A stretch of DNA of 39,704 bases from sequence record ON528724, one strand, 5' to 3'. This stretch comes from Shigella phage ESh12. A model generated the notes under the pieces. The model worked only from the letters and a program-made list of their open reading frames with translations, had not been told where the DNA came from and ran no database searches. A program made the position numbers and the translations under genes. Position 1 is the stretch's first letter; each line of letters begins with the position of its first letter. This document shows, in pieces, positions 5,880 through 36,214 of the stretch.

Positions 5880-5889
5880 GGAGGACTGA

Positions 5890-7497: not shown

Positions 7498-7518
7498 TAA
7501 CCATCACTAAAGGGAGAC
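7496..7518 (+). promoter_or_regulatory. T3-type phage RNAP promoter (phi9 position)
   Basis: AATAACCATCACTAAAGGGAGAC, followed by leader stem-loop. Confidence 0.7.
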
Positions 7519-7598
7519 CTCATCTTTGAAATGAGCGATGACTAAAGGTTGGAGTCCTTTGGTTTCCCTTTATCTTTAACAACTTAGGAGATTTAACA

Positions 7599-8531: not shown

Positions 8532-8552
8532 TTAACCCTCACTAAAGGGAGA
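8530..8552 (+). promoter_or_regulatory. T3-type phage RNAP promoter (phi10)
   Basis: Exact consensus AATTAACCCTCACTAAAGGGAGA. Confidence 0.9.
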
Positions 8553-8687
8553 GACCATAGATGACTACAATGGTTGAATCACCTGAGCACAGAACTTTGT
8601 GGTCACTCCCGTAGGTGAAACATTGAGAACCAACTCGATTCAAGTAGTAACCAAACTTTTCTTTAAATTAACATAAGGAGATTCAAC

Positions 8688-9728: not shown

Positions 9729-9844
9729 TCAGCGGTGCTGACGAAGTGGCAAGCTCTAACGATGAGTTAACGCCTGCACAGAAAGCCGCTATCACGAGGG
9801 CACGTAACAAGGCTCTCAAAGAGGCCACTGAGTAAAACCTAGCA

Positions 9845-9886
9845 AACCCCTTGGGTTCCCTCTTTGGGAGTCTGAGGGGTTTTTTG
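9845..9886 (+). terminator. Tphi-type late terminator
   Basis: AACCCCTTGGGTTCCCTCTTTGGGAGTCTGAGGGGTTTTTTG; GC stem plus T6 run, same place as T7 Tphi after gene 10. Confidence 0.85.
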
Positions 9887-9909
9887 CTTTAACCCTCACT
9901 AACAGGAGG
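9887..9909 (+). promoter_or_regulatory. T3-type promoter variant (phi11 position)
   Basis: CTTTAACCCTCACTAACAGGAGG; deviates at +1 region. Confidence 0.55.
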
Positions 9910-9916
9910 TAACATC

Positions 9917-10507
9917 ATGCGCTCTTATGAGATGAACATTGAGACCGCAGAAGAGCTATCAGCCGTCAACGACATTCTGGCTTCCATCGGTGAGCCACCA
10001 GTATCGACCCTTGAGGGTGATGCAAACGCTGATGTTGCGAATGCTCGACGTGTACTCAACAAGATTAACCGACAGATTCAGTCACGAGGATGGACATTCA
10101 ATATTGAGGAAGGTGTGACTCTTCTACCGGATGCGTTCTCTGGTATGATTCCATTTAGCTCTGACTATCTGTCCGTAATGGCAACCAGCGGTCAGACCCA
10201 ATATATCAACCGTGGTGGCTATCTCTATGACCGCTCTGCGAAGACCGACAGATTCCCTTCTGGTGTTCAGGTCAACCTTATTCGTCTGAGAGAGTTCGAT
10301 GAGATGCCTGAGTGCTTCCGAAACTATATCGTTACCAAGGCTTCCCGCCAGTTTAACAACCGCTTCTTCGGTGCGCCGGAGGTAGACGGAGTGTTGCAGG
10401 AAGAGGAACAGGAAGCGTGGCGTGCGTGCTTCGAGTACGAACTAGACTACGGCAACTACAACATGCTGGACGGTGACGCATTCACCTCTGGTCTACTTAA
10501 CCGCTAA
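9917..10507 (+). CDS. 11: Tail tubular protein A gp11
   Basis: 196 aa, same length as T7 gp11 (from memory), syntenic. Confidence 0.9.
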
Positions 10508-10522
10508 TCATAAGGAGGCTCT

Positions 10523-12928: not shown

Positions 12929-12948
12929 CTTAAAGTCTCCCTGTGGTG

Positions 12949-12971
12949 AATTAACCCTCACTAAAGGGAGA
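12949..12971 (+). promoter_or_regulatory. T3-type phage RNAP promoter (phi13)
   Basis: Exact consensus AATTAACCCTCACTAAAGGGAGA. Confidence 0.9.
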
Positions 12972-13000
12972 CACTAATAGATACGAGGGGTTAAAGCATT

Positions 13001-13411
13001 ATGTATATTACAAAGTGTTTACAAATCCATGCCGACAACTTTCAGCCGTCCAGAGAGGACATTCTGGAAGCTGAGGCACTAGGTGTTGAACCAAAGGTAA
13101 TTCCTGATGAGAACACTGTGGCAATGCTCAGCAATAACGCTGTGTTGGCAATCGGTGGCAATCAGGGAGACCGAGTGTGGTTCCTTACCTCTAAGTACGT
13201 CCCACTGTTTAACTTAAAGGAACGCTTAGAGTTTCGTAGACTTATCATTGAATATCGTGATATGATGCTAAGCCAGTACGAGTCCATTTGGAACTTCGTT
13301 TGGGTAGGTAATAAGTCACACATTCGTTTCCTAAAGACCATAGGTGCGGTATTCCATAATGAGTTTATCGCTGATGGTCAATTCCAATTATTCACTATCA
13401 GTAGGAGGTAA
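13001..13411 (+). CDS. 13: gp13 virion assembly protein
   Basis: 136 aa, syntenic. Confidence 0.75.
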   Translation: MYITKCLQIHADNFQPSREDILEAEALGVEPKVIPDENTVAMLSNNAVLAIGGNQGDRVWFLTSKYVPLFNLKERLEFRRLIIEYRDMMLSQYESIWNFVWVGNKSHIRFLKTIGAVFHNEFIADGQFQLFTISRR

Positions 13412-13413
13412 CT

Positions 13414-14007
13414 ATGTGCTGGATGGCAGCGATTCCTATTGCTATGGCTGGTGCCCAAGCTCTAAGTAGCCAGAACAGTGCTGACAAGGCGCGAGTGGCA
13501 CAGACCGAAGCTGGACGCCGACAGGCAATTGAGATGGTAAAAGAGATGAATATCCAAAATGCCAACGCCTCGCTGGAACAACGGGACGCCCTTGAAGCTG
13601 CATCCTCTGAGTTGACTTCACGTAACATGCGGAAGGTACAGGCTATGGGAACAATCCGTGCAGCTATCGGCGAGAGTATGCTAGAAGGCGAATCCATGAA
13701 GCGCATAAAGCGTATCGAAGAGGGCAACTACATTCGGGAGGCTAATAGTGTCACCGAGAATTACCGCCGAGACTACGCGAGTATCTTTGCGCAACAGTTG
13801 GGACGCACTCAGTCAACAGCAAGTCAAGTCGATGCAATGTACAAGAGCGAGGCCAAGGGTAAGTCTGGTCTGATGCGTGTACTAGACCCTCTGTCCATTA
13901 TGGGTCAGGAAGCTGCAAGTCAATATGCGGCTGGTGGATTTGACAAGAAAGGTGGAAACCAAGCAGCACCTATCAGTGCCGCCAAAGGAACCAAGACCGG
14001 GAGGTAA
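13414..14007 (+). CDS. 14: Internal virion protein A gp14
   Basis: 197 aa, RBS AGGAGG, syntenic. Confidence 0.85.
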   Translation: MCWMAAIPIAMAGAQALSSQNSADKARVAQTEAGRRQAIEMVKEMNIQNANASLEQRDALEAASSELTSRNMRKVQAMGTIRAAIGESMLEGESMKRIKRIEEGNYIREANSVTENYRRDYASIFAQQLGRTQSTASQVDAMYKSEAKGKSGLMRVLDPLSIMGQEAASQYAAGGFDKKGGNQAAPISAAKGTKTGR

Positions 14008-14009
14008 TA

Positions 14010-16253
14010 ATGGCTAGTAAACTAAATAGTGTTTTAGGCAACATGGCGACTCCCGGTATGGAACGACTCCGGGGCGTCAAAGGTATGGACTACCGGGCAG
14101 CAACCATTCAGGCTGAACAACCAAGAGCGAGTCTTCTGGACTCCATTGGTCGATTCGCTAAGGCTGGTGCCGATATGTACATGGCTAAAGATGAACGCGA
14201 TAAGCAACGAGCCGATGAGCGCTCCAACGAGATTATCCGTAAGCTGACCCCTGAGCAGCGCCGACAGGCTATCCAGAATGGTACACTGCTGTATCAGGAT
14301 GACCCATACGCAATGCAAGCCTTGAAGTTCAAGACCGGGCGTAACGCTGCGTTCCTCGTTGACGATGAGGTTCAACAGGCCATCAAAGAGGGTCGCTTCC
14401 GTACTCGTGAAGAGATGGAGCAGTATCGTCACTCACGCCTACAGGAAAACTCGAAGTCGTTCGCTGAGCAGTTCGGCATCAATGAGATGGACGAGGAATA
14501 CCAGAAGGGTTTCAATGCGAATATCACCGAGCGTAACATTGCTCTGTATGGCGCACATGATACCTTCCTGAGCGACCAAGCGCAGAAGGGTGCAATCCTG
14601 AACTCGAAGGTTGAACTCAATGGTGTCCTGTCTGACCCTGACCTACTGTCTCGTCCTGAGTCCGGTGAGTTCTTCCAGAACTACATTGACAACTCCTTGG
14701 TTACAGGGATGACCGACAATCAGGCTCAACAGGTTATCTCTTCGTCCCTGAATGACGTGCTACAGCGTCCGGGTGGTGCCGCCTTCTTGCAGAACATTGA
14801 GAACCGCAAGGTAACTCTAAATGGCGCTACGACTACCTATCGTGAACTGATGGGTGATGAGCAGTGGCAGGCAATGATGATTAAGGCACAGCACACTCAA
14901 TTCCAGAACAACGCAAAGTTAACCGAGAAGTTCCGATTGGACATTAATTCTGCGATTAACCAAGCGGACACTGGTAAAGGCTGGGAGATGCTTCAAGGTA
15001 TCAAGGCCGAACTCGATAAGATTCAGCCGGGTGAAGAGATGACTCCTGAGCGTGAGTGGTTGATTTCCGCACAGGAACAGATGCGCACACGCTTCAAGCA
15101 TGAACAGGCTGAGACAGCCAAGCTGATGGACAAGCAACAGAAGACCCTGAATAAATCTTTGGTCATCGACAAGCAGTTCCAGAAGCGCCTCAACGGTGAG
15201 TACGTCTCGACCGACTATAAGGACATGCCGACAAACGAGAACACTGGTGAGTTTACCCATAGCGATATGGTCAACTATGCGAACCAAAAGTTGGCGCAGA
15301 TTGACGCTATGGACCTTCCAGAGGCGCAGAAGGACCGCATGAAGTTGCAGTACCTCCAAGCTGACTCTAAAGATGGTGCCTTCCGAACCGCTGTAGGGCA
15401 GATGGTGTCGGATGCTCGTGGCGAGTGGAGGGCGGCTGTCATCAATGGCGAGATGCCTGATAGCACACCAGCCCTTGACTCCCTACGCAAGATGCGCAAC
15501 ATTGACCCAGGATTGTTCGCAGCACTGTATCCCGACGATGCCGAGCTGTTTCACACAATGGACCAATTGGATCGACAGGGGATAAAGCCGCAAGCCCTCA
15601 TTAACGCCACCAAATCCCGCCAAGGGAAAACGCGTGAAATGCAGATTGAGGATGAGCGTGCGTTCAGTGAGCTGATGAACAACTCTGCGCAGCCCGAACT
15701 GAAATACCTTCCGTCTTCCATGCGTGAGTACGCTCAGATTATTTATGACTCTGAGAAGTACCTAACAGGAAACCCTAAGGATGCCATATCAGCGGTTAGT
15801 TCGTTCCTAAAGGACACTACCTATACATTCTCTTCTGATAATGTAGATGGTGGAACTTATGGAGTTATTCCTCGCAACATGATGCAGGTAACAGATGACC
15901 CTAAATCTTGGGAGCAAGGTAAGGATATCATTGAGCAAGCTGTTAAGAAGTACCAAGAGCAAAACCCTTGGGTGACTAACAAGCAACTTAAGGTTAGCCA
16001 ACAGGGTAACTTAATCAAAATCTATGATACCACTACCAACTTGGGCATAAGTTACGATAACACACTGCTACGCAAGATGTACAAGAACTACGCTGAGCAA
16101 CAGGCGGCAGCGGCTGAGAAGAAAGCCTTAGCGGAAGCCAATAAGCGAGCACCTATCGTCGCGGCAACCAAGGCCCGTAAAGAAGCAGCTAAGCGTGTCC
16201 AAGAGAAACGGAACAAGGTTCCTAAGTTTATCTATGGACGTAAAGAAGACTAA
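14010..16253 (+). CDS. 15: Internal virion protein C gp15
   Basis: 747 aa, same length as T7 gp15 (from memory). Confidence 0.9.
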   Translation: MASKLNSVLGNMATPGMERLRGVKGMDYRAATIQAEQPRASLLDSIGRFAKAGADMYMAKDERDKQRADERSNEIIRKLTPEQRRQAIQNGTLLYQDDPYAMQALKFKTGRNAAFLVDDEVQQAIKEGRFRTREEMEQYRHSRLQENSKSFAEQFGINEMDEEYQKGFNANITERNIALYGAHDTFLSDQAQKGAILNSKVELNGVLSDPDLLSRPESGEFFQNYIDNSLVTGMTDNQAQQVISSSLNDVLQRPGGAAFLQNIENRKVTLNGATTTYRELMGDEQWQAMMIKAQHTQFQNNAKLTEKFRLDINSAINQADTGKGWEMLQGIKAELDKIQPGEEMTPEREWLISAQEQMRTRFKHEQAETAKLMDKQQKTLNKSLVIDKQFQKRLNGEYVSTDYKDMPTNENTGEFTHSDMVNYANQKLAQIDAMDLPEAQKDRMKLQYLQADSKDGAFRTAVGQMVSDARGEWRAAVINGEMPDSTPALDSLRKMRNIDPGLFAALYPDDAELFHTMDQLDRQGIKPQALINATKSRQGKTREMQIEDERAFSELMNNSAQPELKYLPSSMREYAQIIYDSEKYLTGNPKDAISAVSSFLKDTTYTFSSDNVDGGTYGVIPRNMMQVTDDPKSWEQGKDIIEQAVKKYQEQNPWVTNKQLKVSQQGNLIKIYDTTTNLGISYDNTLLRKMYKNYAEQQAAAAEKKALAEANKRAPIVAATKARKEAAKRVQEKRNKVPKFIYGRKED

Positions 16254-16275
16254 TAGTAAACTATAAGGAGGCTCC

Positions 16276-19200
16276 ATGAGCTACGACAAGACGAAACCAT
16301 CCGAGTATGATGGGTTATTTCAGAAAGCGGCAGATGAACATGGGGTCTCCTATGACCTGCTTCGTAAATTAGCATTCAACGAATCTGGCTTCAATCCGAA
16401 AGCCAAAAGCCCTACCGGGCCGTTGGGTCTCATGCAGTTCACTAAAGGTACGGCAGCGGGGCTTGGACTCAAGGTGACAGGGGGAGATGACGATGAGAGA
16501 TTCAACCCTGAGTTGGCTGTGGACGCAGCCGCTCGTCACCTGAGCGACCTAGTTAGGAAATACGACGGGGATGAACTCAAAGCGGCCCTAGCGTACAACC
16601 AAGGGGAGGGGCGTAATGGCGCTCCGCAAATGCAGGCTTATGACCGAGGCGATTGGGCCTCTATCAGCGAGGAGGGTCGCAACTACATGCGTAAACTTCT
16701 CGATGTGGCTAACAGCCCGCGCAAGGGAGACTTGGAGGCGTTCGGTGGGATAACCCCAAAGGCTAAAGGGATTCCTGCTGAGGACGCCTTTGCTGGAATC
16801 GGTAAGGCCGGGAAGGTAGGAACTGAGCTTCCACAATCAACTGGCTTTAAGCTGGATGGTGTGGAACAACAGGAACCTGCCGTACCGTTCACTAAGGATT
16901 TCTACGATAAACATGGAACTACCGTTGAGGAATATGAAAACCGTTCAACATTCTTCGGGATAAAGGACACCACAAGTGCCGAGCTTCATAACTCGCTATT
17001 GGGTGTTGCCTTCAATGCTGCGCGTTTTGATGATAGTTTTGACATCTTCAAGGACGCTATTACCCCAACTCGCTGGAACAGCACTACGTGGACGCCTGAG
17101 CAATTAGAGCGTATCCGTAACGAGGTAAAAGACCCAAACTACATCAACGTTGTTACTGGTGGAGACCCAGAGAATTTGGATGACCTGATTAAGCTGGCTA
17201 ATGAGAATGCGGCTATGGCTGCGAAGACTCGAGGTGCTGGTGTGGGAGCACAATTGGTAGGTGGAATCGTTGGGGCTGGTGTTGACCCCTTGAGCTATGT
17301 GCCGCTTGTTGGTGTTGCTGGAAAGGGTCTCAAGGTGGTAAACAAGGCGTTCGTTGTTGGTGCCCAAAGTGCAGCCTTGGGCGCAGTTTCAGAAGCTGTT
17401 CGCACATCCGTTGCTGGTGGTGAGGCGCACTATCAAGATGCAATCCTTGGGGGTCTTATGTTTGGGGCCGGGATGAGCGCAATAGCTGATGGTGTGAGTG
17501 CAGCCTTGGGCCGTGTTCGCGCTGGTCAAGTTAGTAACGACTTCGACCGCATGGCTACTCGGCTGGAGGCGCGTGAGGCTGCCTTTCAAGCTGGTGGCGA
17601 GGACTTAACACGTATGCCAACAGATGGTCGCTCCTTTGATGGGGAACATGCTGGGGTGAACTATTCTCCACTTGAAACTGAGCCGGGTGCTGTGGTGTTA
17701 CCACAAGGTCAAATCTTGAGTGACACCAACCCGATTAACCCTCAGACCCTTCAGGAATTTGAGCAGGTTAACCCTGAGCGAGCGGCTCGTGGTATCTCTT
17801 TGGGTGGATTCGCTGAGATTAGCCTCAAGACCCTTCGGTCGGAGAATGAGACTGTGCGCTCCATTGCGAGTGACCTTGTTCGTTCTCCAACAGGGATGGA
17901 ATCAGGCTCTAACGGTAAGTTCGGTTCGACTGCTTCTGACATTAAGGAGCGACTCCATTCGCTCAACCAGCGCACCTACAATCTGCTTTATGATGCTGTG
18001 CGCATAGCAATGAAAGACCCTGAGTTCTCTACAGGTGGTGTGAAGATGAGCCGTAAGGAAGTACGTCAGGAAATCTATAAGCGTGCTGCCTTAGCGATTG
18101 AGAGACCAGAGCTACAATCGGGACTCACAAAGGGAGAACGTAAGGTGATGGATATCCTGAAACAACACTTCGACCTCAAGCGCGAACTCATGGAAAACCC
18201 TGCTATCTTCGGGAACGTAAAAGCTCGTAGCATATTCCCCGGCTCACGCCATAACGGAACCTACGTGCCTAATGTGTATGACCGCGCTATAAAGTTGTAC
18301 ATGGTGAGTCGCTACGGTAACGAGGGACTACAACGGGCAATTGCAGAGTCGTGGCTTACATCTTACCGCGCTCGTCCAGAAGTCAAGGCGAGAGTCGATG
18401 AGTACCTGATGGAGCTTAACGGTCTCAAGACGGTACAGGAAGTAACACCAGATATGGTTCAGAAGCACGCTATGGACAAGGCGTATGGTATATCGCACAC
18501 TGACCAATTCACTTCCTCCTCTATCATTGATGAAAACCTTGAGGGTCTGGTTGGCATCGAGAACAATAACTTCTTGGAGGCCCGTAACATGTTCGACAGC
18601 GACATGGCTGTGACTCTCCCGGATGGTAGCACGTTCTCTGTGAACGACCTGCGTAACTACGATATGGCTGACATTCTTCCTGCTTATGACCGTCGAGTTG
18701 ATGGTGACGTGGCGATCATGGGTGGTTCTGGTAAGACGACGAAGGAACTGAAAGATGAAATCATGGCGCTGGACAAGCAGTCTGAGGGTAACGGCTCACT
18801 GAAAGGTGAAGTCGAAGCACTCAAGGACACCGTGAAGATTCTGACTGGTCGTGCCCGCATGAACCCAGAGGGAGCTTTCGGTACGATTCTTCGCTCCATG
18901 ACTGACTTGGCTTTCTTCGCTAAGAACTTCTACATGCCGTTCCAGAACTTCACAGAGGTTGCTGCTATGTTGAGTAAAGGAAACACATCTGCGGTACTTC
19001 ATGGAATCCCACTGCTTAACGATTGGGTTAGCCGGAGGAAGCCTATGAGCGGCTCTGAGATTAAGGAGATTCACGGTATGGTGTTCGGGAAGGAACTAGA
19101 CCAGCTTATGCGTCCGGGGCGTGAAGACCATATACGTCGCCTTCGGGAGTCTACTGACACTAACACAGTGGTGGCTAATGTGGTTGGGACTATTCGCTTC

Positions 19201-20244
19201 GGCACTCAGGAATTGTCTGCGCGTTCACCTTGGACGATGCTGCTTAATGGAACCTCTAACTACATCATCGATGCTGCCAGACAGGGTGTACTGGGTGATG
19301 TGGCTGGGGCAGCGCTCGCTGGGAAAGGCTCTAAGTTCGGTAAAGCGAATTACCTTAAGTCTGCCTCTGTGTCACCTGAGCAGTGGAAGGGAATAAAGCA
19401 GTTGTTCCGTGACCACGCTACTCGTGATGCTGACGGTAAGTTTACAATCCGGGACAAGCAGGCTTTCGCTAATGACCCACGGACTATGGACTTATGGCGT
19501 CTGGCTGATAAGGTTGCTGATGAGACTATCCTTAGGCCGCATAAGGTTTCCTCACAGGACACCAAGGCTTACGGAGCGGCTGTCAAGATGGTGATGCAGT
19601 TTAAGAACTTCGTAATCAAGTCTCTTAACTCGCGCTTCGTTAGGTTGTTCTATGACGCAACTAAGAACAACAGGGCTATCGATTCTGCGCTGACTGCAAT
19701 CATCTCTATGGGTCTGGCTGGTGGTTACTATGTTGCTCAGGCGCACTTGAAGGCTTACAGCCTACAGGAGCACAAGCGTAAGGAGTACCTCAAGAATGCT
19801 CTTGACCCTAAAATGATTGCCCACGCGTCATTATCCAGAAGTTCACACCTTGGTTCCCCACTGTCTGTCTATGATATGATTGGTGGCTTGTTCGGTAATG
19901 ATACCTACCAGTACACCCGCTCAACGGTGTTACCAAAGGAAAAGACCGAACGTGACCGCAACAAGGCTTGGACTGGTAAGGAGGTTGCGGGTAACATAGT
20001 AGGGGCGATATCCAACCAAGTACCAGCTGTAGGACTAGTTGGGAACATTGGGTCTACCGCCATGAATGCCTCTACGCTGCTTAGCTCTGATGGTAAGCAG
20101 AGTGAGGTAGAGTTCCGTACTGGTGTGTTCAACTCCATGCGTGAGCTTGTCCCCAATGACCCGCTGACACAACAGTTGATTATGCACATCTTCGAAGAGC
20201 AGGGCATCAAGATTAAGGATGATGCAACACGCCCTCGCCAATAA
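16276..20244 (+). CDS. 16: Internal virion protein D gp16 with N-terminal lytic transglycosylase domain
   Basis: 1322 aa; N-terminus LAFNESGFNPKAKSPTGPLGLMQFTKGTA is a soluble lytic transglycosylase motif with catalytic Glu. Confidence 0.92.
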   Translation: MSYDKTKPSEYDGLFQKAADEHGVSYDLLRKLAFNESGFNPKAKSPTGPLGLMQFTKGTAAGLGLKVTGGDDDERFNPELAVDAAARHLSDLVRKYDGDELKAALAYNQGEGRNGAPQMQAYDRGDWASISEEGRNYMRKLLDVANSPRKGDLEAFGGITPKAKGIPAEDAFAGIGKAGKVGTELPQSTGFKLDGVEQQEPAVPFTKDFYDKHGTTVEEYENRSTFFGIKDTTSAELHNSLLGVAFNAARFDDSFDIFKDAITPTRWNSTTWTPEQLERIRNEVKDPNYINVVTGGDPENLDDLIKLANENAAMAAKTRGAGVGAQLVGGIVGAGVDPLSYVPLVGVAGKGLKVVNKAFVVGAQSAALGAVSEAVRTSVAGGEAHYQDAILGGLMFGAGMSAIADGVSAALGRVRAGQVSNDFDRMATRLEAREAAFQAGGEDLTRMPTDGRSFDGEHAGVNYSPLETEPGAVVLPQGQILSDTNPINPQTLQEFEQVNPERAARGISLGGFAEISLKTLRSENETVRSIASDLVRSPTGMESGSNGKFGSTASDIKERLHSLNQRTYNLLYDAVRIAMKDPEFSTGGVKMSRKEVRQEIYKRAALAIERPELQSGLTKGERKVMDILKQHFDLKRELMENPAIFGNVKARSIFPGSRHNGTYVPNVYDRAIKLYMVSRYGNEGLQRAIAESWLTSYRARPEVKARVDEYLMELNGLKTVQEVTPDMVQKHAMDKAYGISHTDQFTSSSIIDENLEGLVGIENNNFLEARNMFDSDMAVTLPDGSTFSVNDLRNYDMADILPAYDRRVDGDVAIMGGSGKTTKELKDEIMALDKQSEGNGSLKGEVEALKDTVKILTGRARMNPEGAFGTILRSMTDLAFFAKNFYMPFQNFTEVAAMLSKGNTSAVLHGIPLLNDWVSRRKPMSGSEIKEIHGMVFGKELDQLMRPGREDHIRRLRESTDTNTVVANVVGTIRFGTQELSARSPWTMLLNGTSNYIIDAARQGVLGDVAGAALAGKGSKFGKANYLKSASVSPEQWKGIKQLFRDHATRDADGKFTIRDKQAFANDPRTMDLWRLADKVADETILRPHKVSSQDTKAYGAAVKMVMQFKNFVIKSLNSRFVRLFYDATKNNRAIDSALTAIISMGLAGGYYVAQAHLKAYSLQEHKRKEYLKNALDPKMIAHASLSRSSHLGSPLSVYDMIGGLFGNDTYQYTRSTVLPKEKTERDRNKAWTGKEVAGNIVGAISNQVPAVGLVGNIGSTAMNASTLLSSDGKQSEVEFRTGVFNSMRELVPNDPLTQQLIMHIFEEQGIKIKDDATRPRQ

Positions 20245-20262
20245 ACCCTCACTAAAGGGAGA
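20240..20262 (+). promoter_or_regulatory. T3-type phage RNAP promoter (phi17)
   Basis: AATAAACCCTCACTAAAGGGAGA followed by inverted repeat in leader. Confidence 0.8.
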
Positions 20263-20317: not shown

Positions 20318-22279
20318 ATGGCTACAACTATTAAGACCGTGATGACTTACCCGCTGGATGGCTCCACTACGGACTTCAATATTCCGTTTGAGTATCTGGC
20401 TCGTAAGTTCGTCCGAGTGACACTTATCGGCGTTGACCGAAAGGAACTCATCTTGAATCAAGACTATCGTTTTGCGACTAAGACCACAATCTCCACAACG
20501 AGAGCATTGGGGCCAGCGGACGGTTATACTTTGATTGAAATCCGTCGATTCACCTCCACTACAGATCGTCTGGTTGACTTTACCGACGGCTCTATCCTGC
20601 GGGCATATGATTTGAACATATCTCAGGTTCAGACCCTTCACGTTGCTGAGGAAGCCCGTGACCTTACCGCTGATACAATTGGCGTTAACAATGATGGGAA
20701 CTTGGATGCTCGTGGTCGTCGTATCGTTAACGTTGCGGATGCGCAAGATGTAGGTGATGCAGTCAACTTAGGTCAAATCCAACGGTGGAACGACTCTGCG
20801 TTGAACTCTGCGAATCGAGCGAAACAGGAAGCTGACCGTGCGACCGCTCGTGCAAACGATGCGAACAACTCTGCGAACGCATCTGCAAGCTCTGCAAGCT
20901 CTTCTGCTGGGTCTGCTGAGGTGGCGAAACGATGGGCTACCAGTGATACAGTAGTTGAGAGTGACCTTGAGTCTTCTCGAACCTACGCGCTTCACTCCAT
21001 GTTATATCGGAATGAGGCTAAAGGTGCAGCCGACAGCGCAAAAACTTCTGAGGCCAATGCGAAGGCTTCCGAAAGTAACGCGAAGAACTCTGAGACCAAC
21101 GCTAAGTCCTCTGAGGTCAAAGCCAAGGCTTCTGAGGAACGAGCCATTGAGGAAGCCAGTAAGTTGGGCAATATGAATGACTTCGCGGCTGCGATTGATA
21201 GTGTGGATGGTAATCATGTGAATATGAAGGGAAACATTAAAACTCCCGGTAATATCACAGGTGGTGGCCTAATCGCTACCGGAGATGCCCGCGTTACCGG
21301 TACGATTGCTGCTGGTGAGTTCAGCACGCTAGGTAAGGAGGTCACTATAAATCAACGAACTAGTGACTGGCGTGTTCCACTGTATACATGGAAAGCCCTA
21401 AACTTACGTAACGACCTAGTTCAAGAGTTGCGCGATAATGGCGGCTCTGATCACTATAACCATTTATACCGCCTTCATATAGACAACCGACCTGTCCATG
21501 TAGGTAATAGGCAAGGATTACATATAGGGTGGAATGAGAATACCAACGGTGAATCTAACTTCATCAACAACCGTGGTGGCGGCGGTGGTGGTTTCATCTT
21601 CCGAACGGTGAACAATGAGAACACTGTAGAGACTGGAAGGGTGACTTTCACCGGAGGTGGTCAGGTTCACGCCAACCACTTCCAAGCCGCCAACGGTGCC
21701 CGAATTGAGGCGAACAACAACATCGTTGGTCAGAACCTCTACGCAGGAATGGGCAACGCGGCACTTGGCCCGGATGGGAACCTTAGCGGTGGCGTATGGA
21801 GTGGAGTAGGTGGCTCTTTATGGTCTTGCTTGAATGACCGATACCAGTTCGCCAAGCCTCCTGCTGGGGTTAGACTGTACACCGCCCGTGGTGGAGACTA
21901 CCTAGAGGGTAACGTTGATGGTAACTCAGTTGGTTTCCGCTGGTTCCTGTCTGACAGAAGGCTTAAAGAGAACCTCAAGGTTGTTCGCTCTGCTGATGAT
22001 ATGCTCAATATTATCCGCTCATATATTCCGGTTTCCTACAAATATAAGGACTCTGAGTACGTTGACAACCGTGGGAAGACTGTTACTATCACTGGTAAGA
22101 ACTCTCGTGCTGGTTTCATTACTCAGGACTTGATTCGAATCTGGCCAGAAGCGGTTGACGTAATGTCAGATGGGATGCAGTCTCCAGACCCTAACCAGAT
22201 TATTGGCGGACTGATGCTGCTTGTTAAGAACCTAGATGAACGTGTTCAGGCGCTTGAATCGAAGAGCACGACAGACTAA
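20318..22279 (+). CDS. 17: Tail fiber protein gp17 with C-terminal extension carrying a chaperone-like autoprocessing motif
   Basis: ATG at 20318 after AAGGAGG (the upstream start at 20219 in the ORF track runs over the promoter); conserved N-terminal tail-attachment domain MATTIKTVMTYPLDGS...; 653 aa; C-terminal SDRRLKENL motif. Confidence 0.9.
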   Translation: MATTIKTVMTYPLDGSTTDFNIPFEYLARKFVRVTLIGVDRKELILNQDYRFATKTTISTTRALGPADGYTLIEIRRFTSTTDRLVDFTDGSILRAYDLNISQVQTLHVAEEARDLTADTIGVNNDGNLDARGRRIVNVADAQDVGDAVNLGQIQRWNDSALNSANRAKQEADRATARANDANNSANASASSASSSAGSAEVAKRWATSDTVVESDLESSRTYALHSMLYRNEAKGAADSAKTSEANAKASESNAKNSETNAKSSEVKAKASEERAIEEASKLGNMNDFAAAIDSVDGNHVNMKGNIKTPGNITGGGLIATGDARVTGTIAAGEFSTLGKEVTINQRTSDWRVPLYTWKALNLRNDLVQELRDNGGSDHYNHLYRLHIDNRPVHVGNRQGLHIGWNENTNGESNFINNRGGGGGGFIFRTVNNENTVETGRVTFTGGGQVHANHFQAANGARIEANNNIVGQNLYAGMGNAALGPDGNLSGGVWSGVGGSLWSCLNDRYQFAKPPAGVRLYTARGGDYLEGNVDGNSVGFRWFLSDRRLKENLKVVRSADDMLNIIRSYIPVSYKYKDSEYVDNRGKTVTITGKNSRAGFITQDLIRIWPEAVDVMSDGMQSPDPNQIIGGLMLLVKNLDERVQALESKSTTD

Positions 22280-22290
22280 GGAGGTGTTAA

Positions 22291-22494
22291 ATGTTATCCT
22301 TCGACTTCAACAATGAGGTCGTTAAGGCTGCGCCTATTGTTGGCACAGGGGTCGCTGATGGGGCGGCCCGACTCTTTTGGGGACTATCGTTAAACGAATG
22401 GTTCTACGTTGCAGCTATCGCCTACACAGTGGTTCAGATTGGTGCCAAGGTAGTCGATAAGATGATTGACTGGAAACGTGCAAACAAGGAGTAA
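22291..22494 (+). CDS. 17.5: Holin gp17.5
   Basis: 67 aa, same length as T7 holin (from memory), one hydrophobic segment, charged C-terminus. Confidence 0.8.
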   Translation: MLSFDFNNEVVKAAPIVGTGVADGAARLFWGLSLNEWFYVAAIAYTVVQIGAKVVDKMIDWKRANKE

Positions 22495-22497
22495 CCT

Positions 22498-22764
22498 ATG
22501 AGCGACAAGACTTTAATCAAGCTGCTGGAGATGCTAGACACGGAGATGGCACAGCGTATGCTTGCTGACCTCCAGAGCGAGGAACGCCGAACGCCGCAGC
22601 TTTACAACGCAATCGGCAAACTGTTAGACCGCCATAAGTTCCAAATCAGTAAGCTGACCCCGGATGAGAACATCCTTGGCGGTCTCGCGGCTGGTCTGGA
22701 AGACTACAACAAAGTGGTCGGCCCTAATGGTCTGACTGATGATGAGACTATCACGCTACAGTAA
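22498..22764 (+). CDS. 18: Terminase small subunit gp18
   Basis: 88 aa, syntenic, similar to T7 gp18. Confidence 0.85.
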   Translation: MSDKTLIKLLEMLDTEMAQRMLADLQSEERRTPQLYNAIGKLLDRHKFQISKLTPDENILGGLAAGLEDYNKVVGPNGLTDDETITLQ

Positions 22765-22767
22765 GTG

Positions 22768-22810
22768 ACATACTCAAGGTTCTCCACGCGGGGAGCCTTT
22801 ATGGATGTTA
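22768..22810 (+). promoter_or_regulatory. RNase III-type hairpin (R18.5 position)
   Basis: ACTCAAGGTTCTCCACGCGGGGAGCCTTTATGGAT. Confidence 0.5.
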
Positions 22811-22853
22811 TTTGGTGCATCTACGTGAAATCTGAAAATTGATGGGAGGTGTT

Positions 22854-23306
22854 ATGCTAAAACTTTTACGCAGCGCACTCCCTTGGGTACTCGCCGGGAC
22901 ACTCTTTATGGGTGGCTGGCACTTAGGGTCAACCCATGAGAGAGCAAACTGGAAGGAGGTAATCCAAAATGAATACATTGCGAAAACAAAAGCAACCGCA
23001 GCAACTCAGGCAGAGGTCAGTCGGGTATCCCGTGAGTACCAAGAAGAGGTTGCAGCCATTGAGGGCAGCACTGATAGGATGCTTAATGACCTGCGTAGTA
23101 ATAATAAGCGGCTGTCAGTCCGCATCAAAACCCTTACCGGACTACCAGAAGATAACGGTAGATGCGAGTTTAATGGTCGAGCCGAACTACACGAGTCAGA
23201 TGCTAAGCGTATTATCGGAATAACCCAAGCTGCTGATGCTCACGTAAGAGCGCTCCAGCGTACTATTAAGGAGATGCAGAATGAGCGACACCCAAGCAAA
23301 CCGTAA
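22854..23306 (+). CDS. 18.5: i-spanin (Rz-like) gp18.5
   Basis: ATG at 22854 after GGGAGG; N-terminal TM segment [17 protein letters not shown], coiled-coil periplasmic domain; similar to T7 gp18.5. Confidence 0.8.
22969..23223 (+). CDS. 18.7: o-spanin (Rz1-like lipoprotein) gp18.7, nested in 18.5 in +1 frame
   Basis: RBS GGAAGGAGG; lipobox-like signal [15 protein letters not shown]; Pro-rich mature part. Confidence 0.75.
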   Translation: MNTLRKQKQPQQLRQRSVGYPVSTKKRLQPLRAALIGCLMTCVVIISGCQSASKPLPDYQKITVDASLMVEPNYTSQMLSVLSE

Positions 23307-25044
23307 TGCGCTAATCATCGCGCAGCTTAAGGGTGACTTCGTGGCCTTCCTGTTCGTATTGTGGAAGGCTTTGGCTCTCCCGCCGCCGACTAAGTGTCAG
23401 ATTGATATGGCCCGGTGTCTGGCTAACGGAGACAACAAGAAGTTTATCCTACAGGCTTTCCGTGGTATCGGTAAGTCATTCATCACCTGTGCGTTCGTTG
23501 TGTGGACGTTATGGCGTGACCCTCAGTTGAAGATACTAATTGTCTCTGCATCCAAAGAACGTGCGGACGCTAACTCCATCTTCATCAAGAACATCATTGA
23601 CCTGCTGCCCTTCTTGGCTGAGTTAAAGCCTCGCCCCGGTCAGCGTGACTCTGTGATTAGTTTCGATGTTGGCCCTGCCAAGCCTGACCACTCTCCGTCT
23701 GTGAAGTCGGTGGGTATCACTGGTCAGTTGACTGGTAGCCGTGCTGATATCATCATAGCGGATGACGTTGAGATTCCGTCTAACTCCGCAACTCAAGGTG
23801 CCCGTGAGAAGCTGTGGACTCTGGTGCAGGAATTTGCTGCGCTTCTGAAACCACTGCCAACTTCTCGCGTTATCTACCTTGGCACGCCTCAAACCGAAAT
23901 GACCTTGTACAAGGAACTCGAAGATAACCGTGGGTACACCACAATCATCTGGCCTGCGCTCTATCCGCGTAGTCGTGAGGAAGACTTGTACTATGGCGAC
24001 CGTCTGGCCCCGATGCTCCGCGAAGAGTTCAACGATGGGTTCGAGATGCTCCAAGGTCAACCGACTGACCCCGTGCGCTTCGATATGGAAGACCTCCGGG
24101 AGCGTGAGTTGGAATACGGTAAGGCTGGCTTCACTTTGCAGTTCATGCTCAACCCGAACCTTAGTGATGCCGAGAAGTACCCCTTACGCCTCCGTGACGC
24201 TATCGTGTGCGGTCTGGACTTCGAGAAAGCCCCAATGCATTACCAGTGGCTTCCGAACCGTCAGAATCGCAATGAAGAGCTTCCTAACGTGGGACTTAAG
24301 GGTGATGATATCCATAGCTATCATTCGTGCAGCCAGAACACTGGACAGTACCAGCAACGCATCCTCGTGATTGACCCAAGTGGTCGCGGTAAGGATGAGA
24401 CAGGTTACGCAGTGTTGTTCACCCTGAATGGCTACATCTATCTGATGGAAGCTGGCGGGTTCCGCGATGGTTACTCCGACAAGACCCTTGAGTCCCTCGC
24501 TAAGAAAGCGAAGCAGTGGAAGGTTCAGACAGTGGTCTTCGAGAGTAACTTCGGGGATGGTATGTTTGGTAAGGTATTCAGCCCGGTTCTCCTGAAACAC
24601 CATGCAGCGCAGCTTGAAGAGATTCGTGCTCGTGGTATGAAGGAACTACGCATTTGTGATACGCTGGAACCTGTACTCTCTACGCACCGCCTTGTGATTC
24701 GTGACGAGGTGATTCGTGAGGACTACCAGACTGCCCGTGACGCTGATGGCAAGCACGACGTTCGCTATTCGCTGTTCTACCAGTTGACCCGTATGGCTCG
24801 TGAGAAGGGCGCTGTGGCCCACGATGACCGACTTGATGCATTAGCATTGGGTGTGGAGTTCTTACGCTCTACGATGGAACTGGACGCCGTGAAGGTGGAG
24901 GCTGAGGTGCTTGAGGCGTTCTTAGAGGAACACATGGAGCACCCAATCCATTCGGCTGGTCATGTAGTTACCTCTGTGGTTGACGGTATGGAACTCTATT
25001 GGGAGGATGACGATGTGAATAGCAACAGGTTCATTGACTGGTAG
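23281..25044 (+). CDS. 19: Terminase large subunit gp19
   Basis: 587 aa; ATPase motifs ([16 protein letters not shown]) and nuclease domain; similar to T7 gp19. Confidence 0.95.
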
Positions 25045-25124
25045 TTATGCATATTGAGCGCATAAGGATTCAATTAGACCACGGATGGTCACTTTAAGAA
25101 ATTCCTTAAGAATCAATGAGTTTG

Positions 25125-25147
25125 AATTAACCCTCACTAAAGGGAGA
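25125..25147 (+). promoter_or_regulatory. T3-type phage RNAP promoter (phiOR, right-end replication promoter)
   Basis: Exact consensus AATTAACCCTCACTAAAGGGAGA. Confidence 0.85.
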
Positions 25148-25287
25148 GAGGGGACTTAAAGCTACTATATAGGTTAGTCATTCAGGTTATGCAATGACCC
25201 TTTATGCACTAAAAGTCTCCTCTGTGATTGGTGATATTATCATTGTATAATCACCCTACCTTAGAGCAACTGAAAGGAGGTGGCTCA

Positions 25288-25437
25288 ATGTTACGCTTGC
25301 TGATTGCCCTGCTGCGTCATAGAGTCACTTGGCGATTTCTTCTGGTACTTACTGCTGCCCTTGGGTACGCAGGTCTTACTGACCACCTCGGTCAACTGGA
25401 AGTGGCCTTTTGCTCTATACTCTCTTGTGGGGATTAA
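25288..25437 (+). CDS. 19.5: gp19.5 small membrane protein
   Basis: 49 aa MLRLLIALLRHRVTWRFLLVLTAALGYAGLTDHLGQLEVAFCSILSCGD closely matches T7 gp19.5 from memory; RBS GAAAGGAGGTG. Confidence 0.7.
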   Translation: MLRLLIALLRHRVTWRFLLVLTAALGYAGLTDHLGQLEVAFCSILSCGD

Positions 25438-25519
25438 ATTATTGTTGATGACCGACAAGCGGCTCTGAGGGATTCGTAGGTATAGTTTCACTACACCAAC
25501 TCATCCCTGTAGAGTCAAC

Positions 25520-25620
25520 CCTAAAGGTTATACCTAAAGATGCCCTGTAGTTCGTAATGGTCTTACAGGGTCTTCTGGTCTAACCTATGGTGTGGCCTTA
25601 CCTAAAGTGGTTGCCTAAAG
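25520..25620. repeat. Right-end heptamer array (CCTAAAG copies)
   Basis: CCTAAAG at 25520, 25533, 25601, 25614. Confidence 0.5.
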
Positions 25621-25659
25621 AGACCCTTTAAGAATTTACCACAAAAATCTGAATGGGTA

Positions 25660-25895
25660 TCTCACAGTTCAAGAACCCAAAGTACCCCCCCCATAGCCCT
25701 CTTAAAGCCACCTAAAGCCATCCCTACCCCTAGGGTTTAACCTTCGGTTAACCTTGGGTATCTCCTCAAGTGGCCTATAGGATAGCCTAAAGTGTTGCCT
25801 CAAGTCAATACCTAAAGTGTCGGATGGCTTAAAGAGGCCTTAAAGAGTGTCCTAGTGTACCAGTTCGATAGTACATCTCTATGTGTCCCTATCTG
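25660..25895. repeat. Terminal repeat of the mature genome (single copy here, as at a concatemer junction)
   Basis: Begins TCTCACAGTTCAAGAACCCAAAGTACCCCCCC, matching T7/T3 left-end sequence from memory; end boundary is approximate. Confidence 0.5.
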
Positions 25896-25897
25896 TT
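25891..25897 (+). promoter_or_regulatory. Concatemer-junction class II pause/termination signal for phage RNAP (ATCTGTT)
   Basis: CCCTATCTGTTA at end of terminal repeat, same context as T7 CJ signal. Confidence 0.45.
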
Positions 25898-25904
25898 AGC
25901 CATT

Positions 25905-25980
25905 CCTAAAGTAAACCCTAAAGCCACTACCTAAAGACCAGACCTAAAGCCATCACCTAAAGAGTGCCGCTATCTTAAAG
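25905..25980. repeat. Left-end heptamer array (CCTAAAG copies)
   Basis: CCTAAAG at 25905, 25917, 25930, 25943, 25956; CTTAAAG at 25974. Confidence 0.55.
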
Positions 25981-26052
25981 ACAACCAGACCGATAAGACC
26001 CATTGTTAACCTGTAGTGATGCCTTGTAGTTTCCTATAATATCCAACGTTGT

Positions 26053-26075
26053 CTGTTTACCCTCACTAAAGGGAA
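26053..26075 (+). promoter_or_regulatory. T3-type phage RNAP promoter (phiOL, left-end replication promoter)
   Basis: TGTTTACCCTCACTAAAGGGAAT followed by AT-rich tandem repeat. Confidence 0.65.
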
Positions 26076-26129
26076 TGAGGGATACCTAAAGAGGGAATAA
26101 AAGATTTAATAAAAGATTTAAATTAATGG

Positions 26130-26165
26130 TTGACTTTAAGTTACCTTTAAAGCTATTATTCATCA
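26130..26165 (+). promoter_or_regulatory. Host sigma70 early promoter (A1 position)
   Basis: -35 TTGACT at 26130, -10 TATTAT at 26154. Confidence 0.6.
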
Positions 26166-26258
26166 CGTCAACGGGACAACGGCCTTAAAGCCACTCCCTG
26201 AGATACCGGAGTCAACCGGATAAGTAGACAGCCTGATAAGTCATACGAAAAACAGGCA

Positions 26259-26294
26259 TTGACAACATGAAGTAAACGCAGTAAGATGCACAAC
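26259..26294 (+). promoter_or_regulatory. Host sigma70 early promoter A2
   Basis: TTGACAACATGAAGTAAACGCAGTAAGAT; -35 TTGACA, 17-nt spacer, -10 TAAGAT; near-identical to T7 A2 from memory. Confidence 0.85.
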
Positions 26295-26368
26295 ATAGCG
26301 TCAACCACCAAATCGGTGTCTTCTAGGTGACTTAAGCGCACCACGGCACATAAAGCGAAACAAAATGG

Positions 26369-26404
26369 TTGACAACATGAAGTAAACACGGTACGATGTA
26401 CCAC
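26369..26404 (+). promoter_or_regulatory. Host sigma70 early promoter A3
   Basis: TTGACAACATGAAGTAAACACGGTACGATGTACCACATG identical to T7 A3 from memory. Confidence 0.9.
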
Positions 26405-26599
26405 ATGAAAGACACCGAGTGTCGTAGGTGTAAAAACGCGACATAGTGGATAGATGGCGAAAGCACAAGCGACCACGATAATAAAGAGCTTGTCGCACTT
26501 ATAACGCAAGTGATGGCTAACACTGAAATAGCCTCGGCTCGACGAAACTGTAGCCTAAAGTTCTTTAACAATCTGGATAATAGCTCTTGAGTGTACCGA

Positions 26600-26660
26600 T
26601 GTATAAGCGAATAACTCAAGGTCGCACTGAAAGCGTGGCCTTTATGATATTCACTTAACA
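26600..26660 (+). promoter_or_regulatory. RNase III-type hairpin (R0.3 position)
   Basis: TAGCTCTTGAGTG...AACTCAAGGTCGCACTGAAAGCGTGGCCTTTATGATATTCACT. Confidence 0.6.
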
Positions 26661-26684
26661 CGAACTAACATGAGGTAATACCAA

Positions 26685-27143
26685 ATGATTTTCACTAAAG
26701 AGCCTGCTAACGTCTTCTATGTACTGGTGTCAGCTTTCCGTTCTAACCTTGATGATGAGGTGAACATGAGTCGCCACCGCCACATGGTGAGCGAATTACG
26801 TGCCGCACCGGGCATCTACGGCGAACTTGAGTCTACCGATTTGACCGGGTGCTATCGTGAGGCAATCGCAAGCGCACCGACTGAGGAAAAAACGGTTCGT
26901 GTACGCTGCAAGGACAAGGCGCAGGCACTCAATGTTGCACGCTTAGCTTGCAATGAGTATGAGCAAGATTGCGTACTGGTATACAAATCACAGACTCACA
27001 CAGCGGGATTGGTGTACGCTAAAGGTATCGACGGGTATAAGGCTGAACGTCTGCCGGGTAGCTTCCAAGAGGTGCCTAAAGGCGCACCACTGAAAGGGTG
27101 CTTTACGATTGACGAGTTCGGACGCCGCTGGCAAGTGCAGTAA
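26685..27143 (+). CDS. 0.3: gp0.3 S-adenosylmethionine-degrading enzyme (T3 SAMase, anti-restriction)
   Basis: 152 aa, first gene after A1-A3 and R0.3; recognised as the T3 0.3 protein from memory (MIFTKEPA...GRRWQVQ). Confidence 0.85.
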   Translation: MIFTKEPANVFYVLVSAFRSNLDDEVNMSRHRHMVSELRAAPGIYGELESTDLTGCYREAIASAPTEEKTVRVRCKDKAQALNVARLACNEYEQDCVLVYKSQTHTAGLVYAKGIDGYKAERLPGSFQEVPKGAPLKGCFTIDEFGRRWQVQ

Positions 27144-35879: not shown

Positions 35880-36012
35880 ATGCTGCGATTGGTGTGCCGC
35901 TAAGTGGAACCAAGCTATTGAGGCTGGTGACGAGGCCGCAGCCAACGCCTATCAACAATTGTACGCGCTGTGGGAGCGGCGCTTTAAGGAGGCTCAAAGT
36001 GGAGCAACGTGA
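35866..36012 (+). CDS. 1.8: gp1.8-like small protein
   Basis: 48 aa from ATG 35866 after AAGGGG, overlaps end of 1.7. Confidence 0.45.
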
Positions 36013-36182: not shown

Positions 36183-36214
36183 AACCCAATCATTAACCAC
36201 AAAGGAGAAACATT

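What the first reader, a model, noticed from the sequence alone, without database searches (positions are those of the whole stretch)
21950..22279. Tail fiber has a C-terminal extension with a self-cleaving chaperone-type motif
gp17 here is 653 aa, versus roughly 550-560 aa for T7 and T3 gp17 as I recall them. The extra length sits at the C-terminus. Residue 545 onward reads FLS-DRRLKENLKVV, which fits the Ser/Lys catalytic dyad spacing (S then K five residues on) of the autoproteolytic C-terminal intramolecular chaperone domain of endosialidases and some phage fibers (peptidase S74 type), and the tail ends in a helical segment. If real, the mature fiber would be cut after Ser545 and the receptor-binding part upstream (about 180-544) would be a non-T7 module. 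That would mean host-range module exchange on a T3 backbone.
Basis: partly seen in the sequence, partly recalled or inferred. Interest (0 to 1): 0.7.

Follow-up and report, generated by a model that had tools for sequence, protein, structure and literature searches.

The report
Self-cleaving chaperone on tail fibre
The tail fibre of this T3-like phage ends in a 109-residue folding-helper domain that very probably cuts itself off once the fibre has assembled; this is real but ordinary, because the same domain was already shown to self-cleave in the closely related Yersinia phage phiYeO3-12.

Summary

- By analogy with T5 pb1, and from published fragment masses for phiYeO3-12 gp17, the cut is most likely before Ser545 (Leu544|Ser545), not after it.
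- Similarity to T7/T3 gp17 runs to about residue 310, so the foreign module starts there, not at 180.

The finding is not new. An exact-sequence look-up identifies the window as Shigella phage ESh12, genus Teetrevirus. The same 645-653 aa fibre architecture occurs in phiYeO3-12, AP5, 2050H2, E-2, KNP3 and others (PHROG 9502). Autoproteolysis of phiYeO3-12 gp17, whose chaperone domain is 85% identical, was shown by SDS-PAGE and mass spectrometry in 2020-2022.

Module exchange is real. The distal fibre is almost entirely DNA-identical to Serratia phage 2050H2, while part of the proximal fibre is phiYe-F10-like.

Interest is low.

The parts
20240..20262 (+). T3-class phage promoter (phi17) in front of gene 17, overlapping the end of gene 16
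   Evidence: One mismatch to AATTAACCCTCACTAAAGGGAGA. There are 11 such sites in the window against 0 in shuffles. phiYeO3-12 has an annotated phi17 promoter at the equivalent place.
20318..22279 (+). Gene 17, tail fibre protein, 653 aa plus stop
   Evidence: ORF and translation. End-to-end match to PHROG 9502 'tail fiber protein', 1213 bits. Exact match to URY11118.1 of Shigella phage ESh12.
20318..20782 (+). N-terminal tail-attachment domain (aa 1-155), T7/T3 gp17 type
   Evidence: Pfam Phage_T7_tail E 3.3e-59. PDB T7 gp17 chains E 6e-87.
20783..21247 (+). Ala/Ser/Asn-rich shaft (aa ~156-310), presumably coiled coil, still alignable with T7/T3 gp17
   Evidence: The HMMER alignment to T7 gp17 runs over query 1-313. 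BLASTP to T3 gp17 is good to about aa 310. The coiled-coil conformation is inferred from composition and the weak YadA_stalk match, not tested.
20512..21011 (+). Recombinant patch relative to the nearest genome, 2050H2: here the window is phiYe-F10/phiYeO3-12-like
   Evidence: In 100-nt windows, four of five are 70-90% identical to 2050H2 (one is 100%), against 95-100% to phiYe-F10. The flanks are 95-100% identical to 2050H2.
21269..21502 (+). Variable patch (aa ~318-395), shared in the phage collection only with Serratia phage 2050H2
   Evidence: Alignment A1 shows the window and 2050H2 differing from all eight other relatives here. Sensitive blastn of the overlapping stretch 21260-21520 finds only 2050H2, at 100%.
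21473..21727 (+). Widespread unnamed fibre module (aa ~386-470; QG.H.GWNE..G.GE..F.NN.G.G.GGF.FRTVN)
   Evidence: Matched in 107 of the 150 listed representative proteins. Two of those scanned end in Gp53-like_C instead of S74. No Pfam model covers it.
21728..21868 (+). Optional insert (aa ~471-517) with the 'GPDGNLSGGVW' motif, weakly similar to the T7/T3 gp17 tip entry
   Evidence: Absent from 9 of the 17 sequences in alignment A4. Weak T7/T3 alignment 'DGNIQGTKWGG'.
21869..21949 (+). Last ~27 residues of the mature fibre (aa 518-544); conserved together with the chaperone domain and ending at Leu544
   Evidence: The consensus 'RVRxFTxxGxxYLxxxVDGxxxGxNxFxSD' travels with S74 domains in A4. 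Any role in the cleavage site is inferred from T5 pb1.
21947..21952 (+). Predicted scissile bond Leu544|Ser545 (codons 544 and 545)
   Evidence: Ser545 aligns with position 1 of the Pfam model and is invariant in 122/122 domains. The side of the cut is taken from T5 pb1 and from the phiYeO3-12 fragment mass. It is inferred for this protein.
21965..21967 (+). Lys550 codon, the general-base partner of Ser545
   Evidence: Invariant in 122/122 domains. Same S+5 spacing as Ser1264/Lys1269 of T5 pb1.
21950..22276 (+). C-terminal intramolecular chaperone domain, peptidase S74 (aa 545-653, 12.33 kDa), ending in a long helix (aa 625-652)

Best explanation
Gene 17 encodes a modular T3-type tail fibre whose last 109 residues (Ser545-Asp653) are a peptidase-S74 C-terminal intramolecular chaperone domain.

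Proposed mechanism, by analogy with K1F endosialidase and T5 pb1:
- Three chains associate through the chaperone domains, including the long C-terminal helix.
- This templates trimeric folding of the distal fibre.
- Once the tip is correctly folded, Ser545, activated by Lys550, attacks the preceding peptide bond (Leu544|Ser545).
- A fragment of about 12.3 kDa is released, leaving a mature fibre of about 58.5 kDa (residues 1-544) on the virion.

The receptor-binding part is therefore roughly residues 315-544. Residues 1-310 are the conserved T7/T3-type adaptor and shaft.

What is shown here: domain identity, invariance of the catalytic residues, the predicted fold and the mosaic ancestry. What is inferred from homologues: cleavage itself, its exact bond, and the chaperone role.
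For: - Pfam Peptidase_S74 matches residues 545-613, model positions 1-57 of 58, E 3.9e-11, 43.5 bits against a cut-off of 22.
- Ser545, Asp546, Lys550, Gly599 and Gln603 are invariant in 37 diverse domains of 24-84% identity. Ser, Asp and Lys are invariant in 122/122.
- A family profile finds solved chaperone-bearing proteins: 8jov, 6f45, MyRF 7dc3, GA-1 3gud and the L-shaped fibre 8hqz.
- The AlphaFold model of residues 520-653 has pLDDT 82.8.
- The top nine Foldseek hits are MyRF ICA, 3gud and 3gw6 chains.
- In the 85%-identical domain of phiYeO3-12 gp17, recombinant protein of 69.4 kDa runs at about 58 kDa with an 11 kDa fragment (PMC7582827). Mass spectrometry gives 57.423 + 12.242 kDa (PMC8739404).
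- A review reports that the AP5 receptor-binding protein contains an intramolecular chaperone domain that excises itself by auto-proteolysis (PMC6950378).
- The domain and dyad are conserved in all nine close relatives aligned.
Against: - No experiment exists on this phage's virions or protein.
- The exact scissile bond is extrapolated. The published 12.242 kDa is 17 Da lighter than the calculated Ser539-Thr645 fragment. The summed masses also do not match a simple tag model, so the mass data favour a cut before the serine but do not prove it.
- The upstream residues that sense folding in T5 and K1F (Arg and Asp of the triple beta-helix) could not be mapped, because the model of residues 300-653 failed with pLDDT 30.
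- The predicted structure is a monomer of a domain that works as an intertwined trimer, so TM-scores to phage chaperone domains are modest (0.40-0.48).
Confidence: 0.9

Rival explanations
1. The S74-type domain is present but is not cleaved in this phage. It stays on the virion as the distal tip and takes part in receptor binding.
For: No virion data exist for this phage. The residue before the serine varies among close relatives (L, Q, N, K, S), so the local context of the scissile bond is not fixed. In T5, an uncleaved mutant folds stably.
Against: The catalytic Ser, Asp and Lys are intact and invariant. phiYeO3-12 gp17, which has Gln before the serine, cleaves itself in E. coli, so variation at that position is tolerated. 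In T5 only the processed fibre competes for the receptor.
Confidence: 0.06
2. The S-x4-K match is a chance motif, and the C-terminal 109 residues are an unrelated helical extension.
For: S-x4-K occurs seven times in gp17, six of them in the low-complexity shaft, so the motif itself carries no information.
Confidence: 0.01
3. The domain is cleaved off, but the released 12 kDa trimer has a further role after release, for example in assembly control or in the infected cell, beyond folding the fibre.
For: The chaperone domain is unusually well conserved among relatives compared with the fibre part just upstream: 92-98% nucleotide identity to IME305, KNP3, ESh7 and vB_Yep_15 against 40-70% upstream. 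The eukaryotic homologue MyRF uses the same domain to release a transcription factor.
Against: No evidence for a second role was found here or in the three papers read on these fibres. Strong conservation is expected for a catalytic folding template.
Confidence: 0.03

Closest known systems
Tail fibre Gp17 of Yersinia phage phiYeO3-12 (645 aa; S74 domain 539-645) and its family in Teetrevirus (AP5, phiYe-F10, 2050H2, E-2/E-3/E-4, KNP3, IME305, ESh7; PHROG 9502)
   Same: Same architecture from end to end: T7-type N-terminal domain, shaft, 'GWNE...GGF.FRTVN' module, tip, then SDRRLK and the S74 domain. Overall protein identity is 76-96%. The chaperone domain is 85% identical to that of phiYeO3-12. 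The gene sits at the same genome position, between gene 16 and the holin gene 17.5. Autoproteolysis was demonstrated for phiYeO3-12.
   Different: Residues ~318-395 are a different sequence, shared only with 2050H2. The protein is 8 residues longer than phiYeO3-12 gp17. It has a hexaglycine run at 420-425, where phiYeO3-12 and five other relatives have GAGSGG. The isolation host is Shigella rather than Yersinia O:3.
C-terminal intramolecular chaperone domain of K1F endosialidase (endoNF, PDB 3GW6), the founding member of peptidase family S74
   Different: Only 14% identical in the structural alignment. The passenger is a sialidase tailspike with a triple beta-helix stalk, whereas here it is a thin fibre tip with no enzymatic domain detected.
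[quoted passage not shown]
   Different: It comes from a siphovirus. Its chaperone is longer (133 residues) with long beta-hairpin 'tentacles'. Its bullet-shaped receptor domain showed no sequence similarity to residues 315-544 here: no match to that region.
T3 and T7 gp17 (558 and 553 aa)
   Same: N-terminal domain and shaft are homologous to about residue 310. The genome backbone is T3-type: genus Teetrevirus, with T3-class promoters.
   Different: T3 gp17 ends in gp37_trimer plus gp37_C tip domains and has no S74 domain. Those fibres fold without a cleavable C-terminal chaperone.
MyRF ICA domain (eukaryotic myelin regulatory factor, PDB 7DC3)
   Different: It is an internal domain of a eukaryotic membrane-bound transcription factor. 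The relationship is one of shared domain ancestry only.

Membership tests
Peptidase S74 / C-terminal intramolecular chaperone domain (Pfam PF13884) | Sequence match to the family profile above the curated threshold | tested here: met
   Residues 545-613, E 3.9e-11, 43.5 bits against a gathering score of 22. A self-built family profile hits solved members at E 1.6e-22 to 3e-8.
Peptidase S74 / C-terminal intramolecular chaperone domain (Pfam PF13884) | Catalytic serine at the first position of the domain and lysine five residues downstream | tested here: met
   Ser545 aligns to model position 1. Ser545, Asp546 and Lys550 are invariant in 37/37 and 122/122 homologous domains. The spacing is the same as T5 pb1 Ser1264/Lys1269.
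Peptidase S74 / C-terminal intramolecular chaperone domain (Pfam PF13884) | Position at the extreme C-terminus of a trimeric phage fibre or spike | tested here: met
   The domain spans residue 545 to the last residue, 653, of gp17, whose N-terminus is the T7-type tail-attachment domain.
Peptidase S74 / C-terminal intramolecular chaperone domain (Pfam PF13884) | Characteristic fold: mixed alpha/beta body followed by a long C-terminal helix that forms the trimeric coiled coil | tested here: met
Peptidase S74 / C-terminal intramolecular chaperone domain (Pfam PF13884) | Autoproteolytic release of the domain after folding | not testable with these tools
   Shown for phiYeO3-12 gp17, which is 85% identical in the domain, by SDS-PAGE (about 58 + 11 kDa) and mass spectrometry (57.423 + 12.242 kDa). 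Not shown for this protein.
Peptidase S74 / C-terminal intramolecular chaperone domain (Pfam PF13884) | The domain is required for trimerisation and folding of the upstream part (chaperone activity) | not testable with these tools
   Known for endoNF and inferred for other members.
Peptidase S74 / C-terminal intramolecular chaperone domain (Pfam PF13884) | Upstream folding-sensor residues (Arg from a neighbouring chain, Asp) that complete the active site | tested here: inconclusive
   A conserved 'RVRxFT...VDG' stretch precedes the serine (R519, D534), but the model of residues 300-653 failed with pLDDT 30. Equivalence to T5 Arg1250/Asp1239 could not be established.
T7/T3-type gp17 tail fibre | N-terminal tail-attachment domain (Pfam Phage_T7_tail) | tested here: met
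   E 3.3e-59 over residues 1-155. T7 gp17 PDB chains E 6e-87.
T7/T3-type gp17 tail fibre | C-terminal pyramid and tip domains (Pfam gp37_trimer, gp37_C) | tested here: not met
   Present in T3 gp17 (E 3.8e-37 and 1.2e-7). Absent from the window protein even at E up to 1. Only a short 'DGN.SGG.W' remnant aligns.

The most novel reading that the evidence does not exclude
The distal fibre module (aa ~232-653, including the private patch 318-395) is almost entirely DNA-identical in a phage isolated on Shigella (ESh12, this window) and one isolated on Serratia marcescens (2050H2). It may therefore recognise a receptor shared across enterobacterial genera. If so, this chaperone-capped module would be a cross-genus host-range cassette, and patch 318-395 its specificity determinant.
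Probability: 0.25. Interest if true: 0.3.

Novelty: already known. Interest (0 to 1): 0.12.

Why it matters
For basic biology the finding adds little. Self-cleaving C-terminal chaperones on phage fibres have been known since 2003-2010, and this exact fibre type was characterised in phiYeO3-12.

It has practical value for anyone working with this phage, ESh12, which is a candidate in an anti-Shigella cocktail:
- Recombinant gp17 should be expected to appear as about 58.5 + 12.3 kDa.
- C-terminal tags will be lost on cleavage.
- Fibre-swap engineering must carry the chaperone domain and the roughly 27 conserved residues in front of it together with the tip.
- The receptor-binding determinants should be sought in residues ~315-544, not in the last 109 residues.

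Tried and rejected
- Structure prediction of residues 300-653 with a five-sequence alignment gave pLDDT 30 and was discarded. The fold of the receptor-binding part therefore remains unknown.
- A word-indexed homologue search with the 123-residue C-terminus returned nothing, and the 334-residue query returned only four hits. Depth was obtained instead from the exhaustive representative search and a profile query.
- A single-sequence search of the C-terminus against PDB gave only a weak hit to 8jov (E 0.038) among spurious designed helical repeats. The profile search was needed.
- I tried to pin the scissile bond from published masses. The C-terminal fragment favours a start at the serine but is 17 Da off. 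The N-terminal fragment could not be reconciled with a simple tag model, so this counts only as supporting evidence.
- A literature search for PDB 8JOV found nothing relevant.
- I considered and rejected the idea that the extension is a chance motif, or a retained T7-like tip.

Full report
**What is there**

The ORF covering the finding runs to the stop at 22277-22279. The biologically sensible start is ATG 20318, preceded by AAAGGAGG and by a T3-class promoter at 20240-20262 that overlaps the end of gene 16. This gives a protein of 653 aa. 'FLSDRRLKENLKVV' begins at residue 543, so Ser545 is codon 21950-21952 and Lys550 is codon 21965-21967.

T3 gp17 is 558 aa and the deposited T7 gp17 chain is 553 aa, so the recalled lengths are right.

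**Is it more than chance?**

The S-x4-K spacing by itself is not. It occurs seven times in this protein, six of them in the Ala/Ser/Asn-rich shaft, against about two expected from composition.

The profile evidence is decisive:
- Pfam Peptidase_S74 ('chaperone of endosialidase') matches residues 545-613 to model positions 1-57 of 58, with E 3.9e-11 and 43.5 bits against a curated cut-off of 22.
- An exhaustive HMMER scan of 1.84 billion representative proteins with residues 300-653 found 173 relatives.
- In an alignment of 37 diverse C-terminal domains from that scan (24-84% identity), the only invariant columns are Ser545, Asp546, Lys550, Gly599 and Gln603.
- In 122 domains, Ser, Asp and Lys are 122/122.
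- A profile of that alignment finds solved structures that carry this domain: tail fibre 8jov (E 1.6e-22), the long tail fibre distal subunit 6f45 (1.3e-15), the MyRF ICA domain 7dc3 (8.6e-15), the GA-1 neck appendage chaperone 3gud (3.4e-10) and the L-shaped tail fibre 8hqz (3e-8).

**Fold**

With a 123-sequence alignment, AlphaFold2 models residues 520-653 at mean pLDDT 82.8. The model has a small alpha/beta body and a long terminal helix at residues 625-652.
- The nine best Foldseek matches in the PDB are all MyRF ICA, GA-1 or endoNF chaperone chains.
- The model is a monomer of a domain that works as an intertwined trimer. That explains the modest TM-scores to the phage members.

**How it most likely works**

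This follows the K1F endosialidase and T5 pb1 precedents:
- The three C-terminal domains trimerise and template folding of the distal fibre.
- Correct folding completes the active site.
- Ser545, activated by Lys550, cleaves the chain, and the chaperone trimer leaves.

For this protein the expected products are 58.48 kDa (residues 1-544) and 12.33 kDa (residues 545-653).

Cleavage is inferred, not shown, for this phage. It has been shown for the closest characterised homologue:
- phiYeO3-12 gp17 (645 aa, S74 domain 539-645, 85% identical to the window's domain) has a predicted mass of 69.4 kDa. It purifies as about 58 kDa plus a fragment of about 11 kDa (PMC7582827).
- Mass spectrometry gave 57.423 and 12.242 kDa (PMC8739404).
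- A review of Yersinia phages reports that the AP5 fibre contains an intramolecular chaperone domain that excises itself by auto-proteolysis (PMC6950378).

**Which side of the serine?**

In T5 pb1 the cleaved bond is Thr1263-Ser1264 and the serine leaves with the chaperone. The same paper reports this for K1F, while phi29 was modelled the other way with weaker density.

I calculated the possible C-terminal fragments of phiYeO3-12 gp17:
- Starting at Ser539: 12,258.8 Da.
- Starting at Asp540: 12,171.8 Da.
- Starting at Gln538: 12,387.0 Da.

The measured 12,242 Da is nearest the serine start, with a residual of -17 Da that I cannot explain. The most likely bond here is therefore Leu544|Ser545. 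I hold this at roughly 75%.

**Anatomy of the rest of the fibre**

- Residues 1-155 are the T7-type tail-attachment domain (Pfam E 3.3e-59).
- The alignment with T7 and T3 gp17 continues through the shaft to about residue 310. The non-T7 part therefore starts near 310-315, not 180.
- T3 gp17 then has gp37_trimer and gp37_C tip domains, which are absent here.
- The window has instead a variable patch at about 318-395.
- Next comes a widespread but unnamed module at about 386-470 ('QG.H.GWNE..G.GE..F.NN.G.G.GGF.FRTVN'). It is found in 107 of the 150 listed representatives. Two of those scanned end in Gp53-like_C rather than S74.
- An optional insert follows at about 471-517, with a 'GPDGNLSGGVW' motif faintly like the T7/T3 tip entry.
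- A conserved stretch of about 27 residues ('RVRxFT...YL...VDG...G.N.F') travels with the S74 domain and would form the extreme C-terminus of the mature fibre.
- The fold of residues 300-544 could not be obtained: pLDDT was 30 with a five-sequence alignment.

**Module exchange**

The backbone is T3-type. Bases 1-20000 of the window are 98.2% identical to Serratia phage 2050H2 (genus Teetrevirus), and the window carries eleven T3-class promoters.

Within gene 17 the ancestry is mosaic:
- Window 20512-21011 is only 70-90% identical to 2050H2 in four of five 100-nt windows, but 95-100% identical to phiYe-F10 and phiYeO3-12.
- Gene 16 upstream and everything from about 21012 to 22911 are 95-100% identical to 2050H2, and mostly 100% from 21212.
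- The 21260-21520 stretch, which covers most of the variable patch, has no other match in 50,697 phage records, even with sensitive blastn.
- The chaperone domain is better conserved across relatives than the tip it folds: 92-98% nucleotide identity to IME305, KNP3, ESh7 and vB_Yep_15, against 40-70% just upstream.

So 'host-range module exchange on a T3 backbone' is correct. It is also the well-known pattern for this group.

**Identity and novelty**

An exact-sequence look-up identifies the protein as URY11118.1 of Shigella phage ESh12, on a contig of 39,704 bp, the length of the window. ESh12 (ON528724) is a Teetrevirus used in an experimental anti-Shigella cocktail. That paper does not discuss tail fibres (PMC9686686).

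The architecture is not new:
- PHROG 9502 matches the protein end to end at 1213 bits.
- Nine relatives share it at 76-96% protein identity, with the SDRRLK site invariant.
- UniProt already annotates the S74 domain in phiYeO3-12 gp17.
- K1F endosialidase, the founding member of family S74, is itself carried on a T7-type N-terminal adaptor.

I therefore rate this 'already known' with low interest.

**What remains open**

- Direct proof of cleavage in ESh12.
- The exact scissile bond.
- The fold and receptor of residues ~315-544.
- Why a distal fibre that is almost entirely DNA-identical occurs in phages isolated on Shigella and on Serratia.

Noticed in passing
window 21012-22279: The distal two-thirds of gene 17 is 95-100% (mostly 100%) identical in DNA to Serratia phage 2050H2. 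The window is Shigella phage ESh12, isolated on a different genus. Either the receptor is shared or this module is not the sole determinant of host range.
   Followed up: partly
window 20512-21011: Relative to its nearest genome (2050H2), the window carries a patch of about 500 bp in the N-terminal domain and shaft of gene 17. Four of its five 100-nt windows are 70-90% identical to 2050H2, and the patch is 95-100% identical to Yersinia phages phiYe-F10 and phiYeO3-12. This marks a recombination tract inside the conserved part of the fibre.
   Followed up: yes
window 21473-21727 (gp17 aa ~386-470): A conserved fibre module ('QG.H.GWNE..G.GE..F.NN.G.G.GGF.FRTVN') occurs in over 100 representative proteins, with various C-terminal ends (S74 or Gp53-like_C). 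No Pfam model covers it, and its fold was not obtained.
   Followed up: partly
window ~22990 onward versus L001 (2050H2 record 35933-36870): The 2050H2 record diverges from the window inside gene 18.5. It is followed there by a CDS annotated 'Gp13.5' instead of gene 19. This probably reflects how that record was assembled or permuted.
   Followed up: no
window 25000-27000: GC content drops to 0.44 just after gene 19 (which ends at 25044) and a perfect T3 promoter at 25125-25147. The window looks like a whole genome of about 39.7 kb, written in circularly permuted form, with the genome ends and early region lying here.
   Followed up: no
window 22969-23223 inside 22839-23306: An 84-aa ORF is embedded in another frame of gene 18.5. 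It sits at the position of the Rz1-like gene 18.7 (o-spanin) annotated in phiYeO3-12 and T3.
   Followed up: no
phiYeO3-12 gp17 (L002:1501-3435), published mass spectrometry: The published 12.242 kDa C-terminal fragment is 17 Da lighter than the calculated Ser539-Thr645 peptide (12,258.8 Da). The cause could be measurement error or a chemical change at the new N-terminal serine. It remains unexplained.
   Followed up: partly
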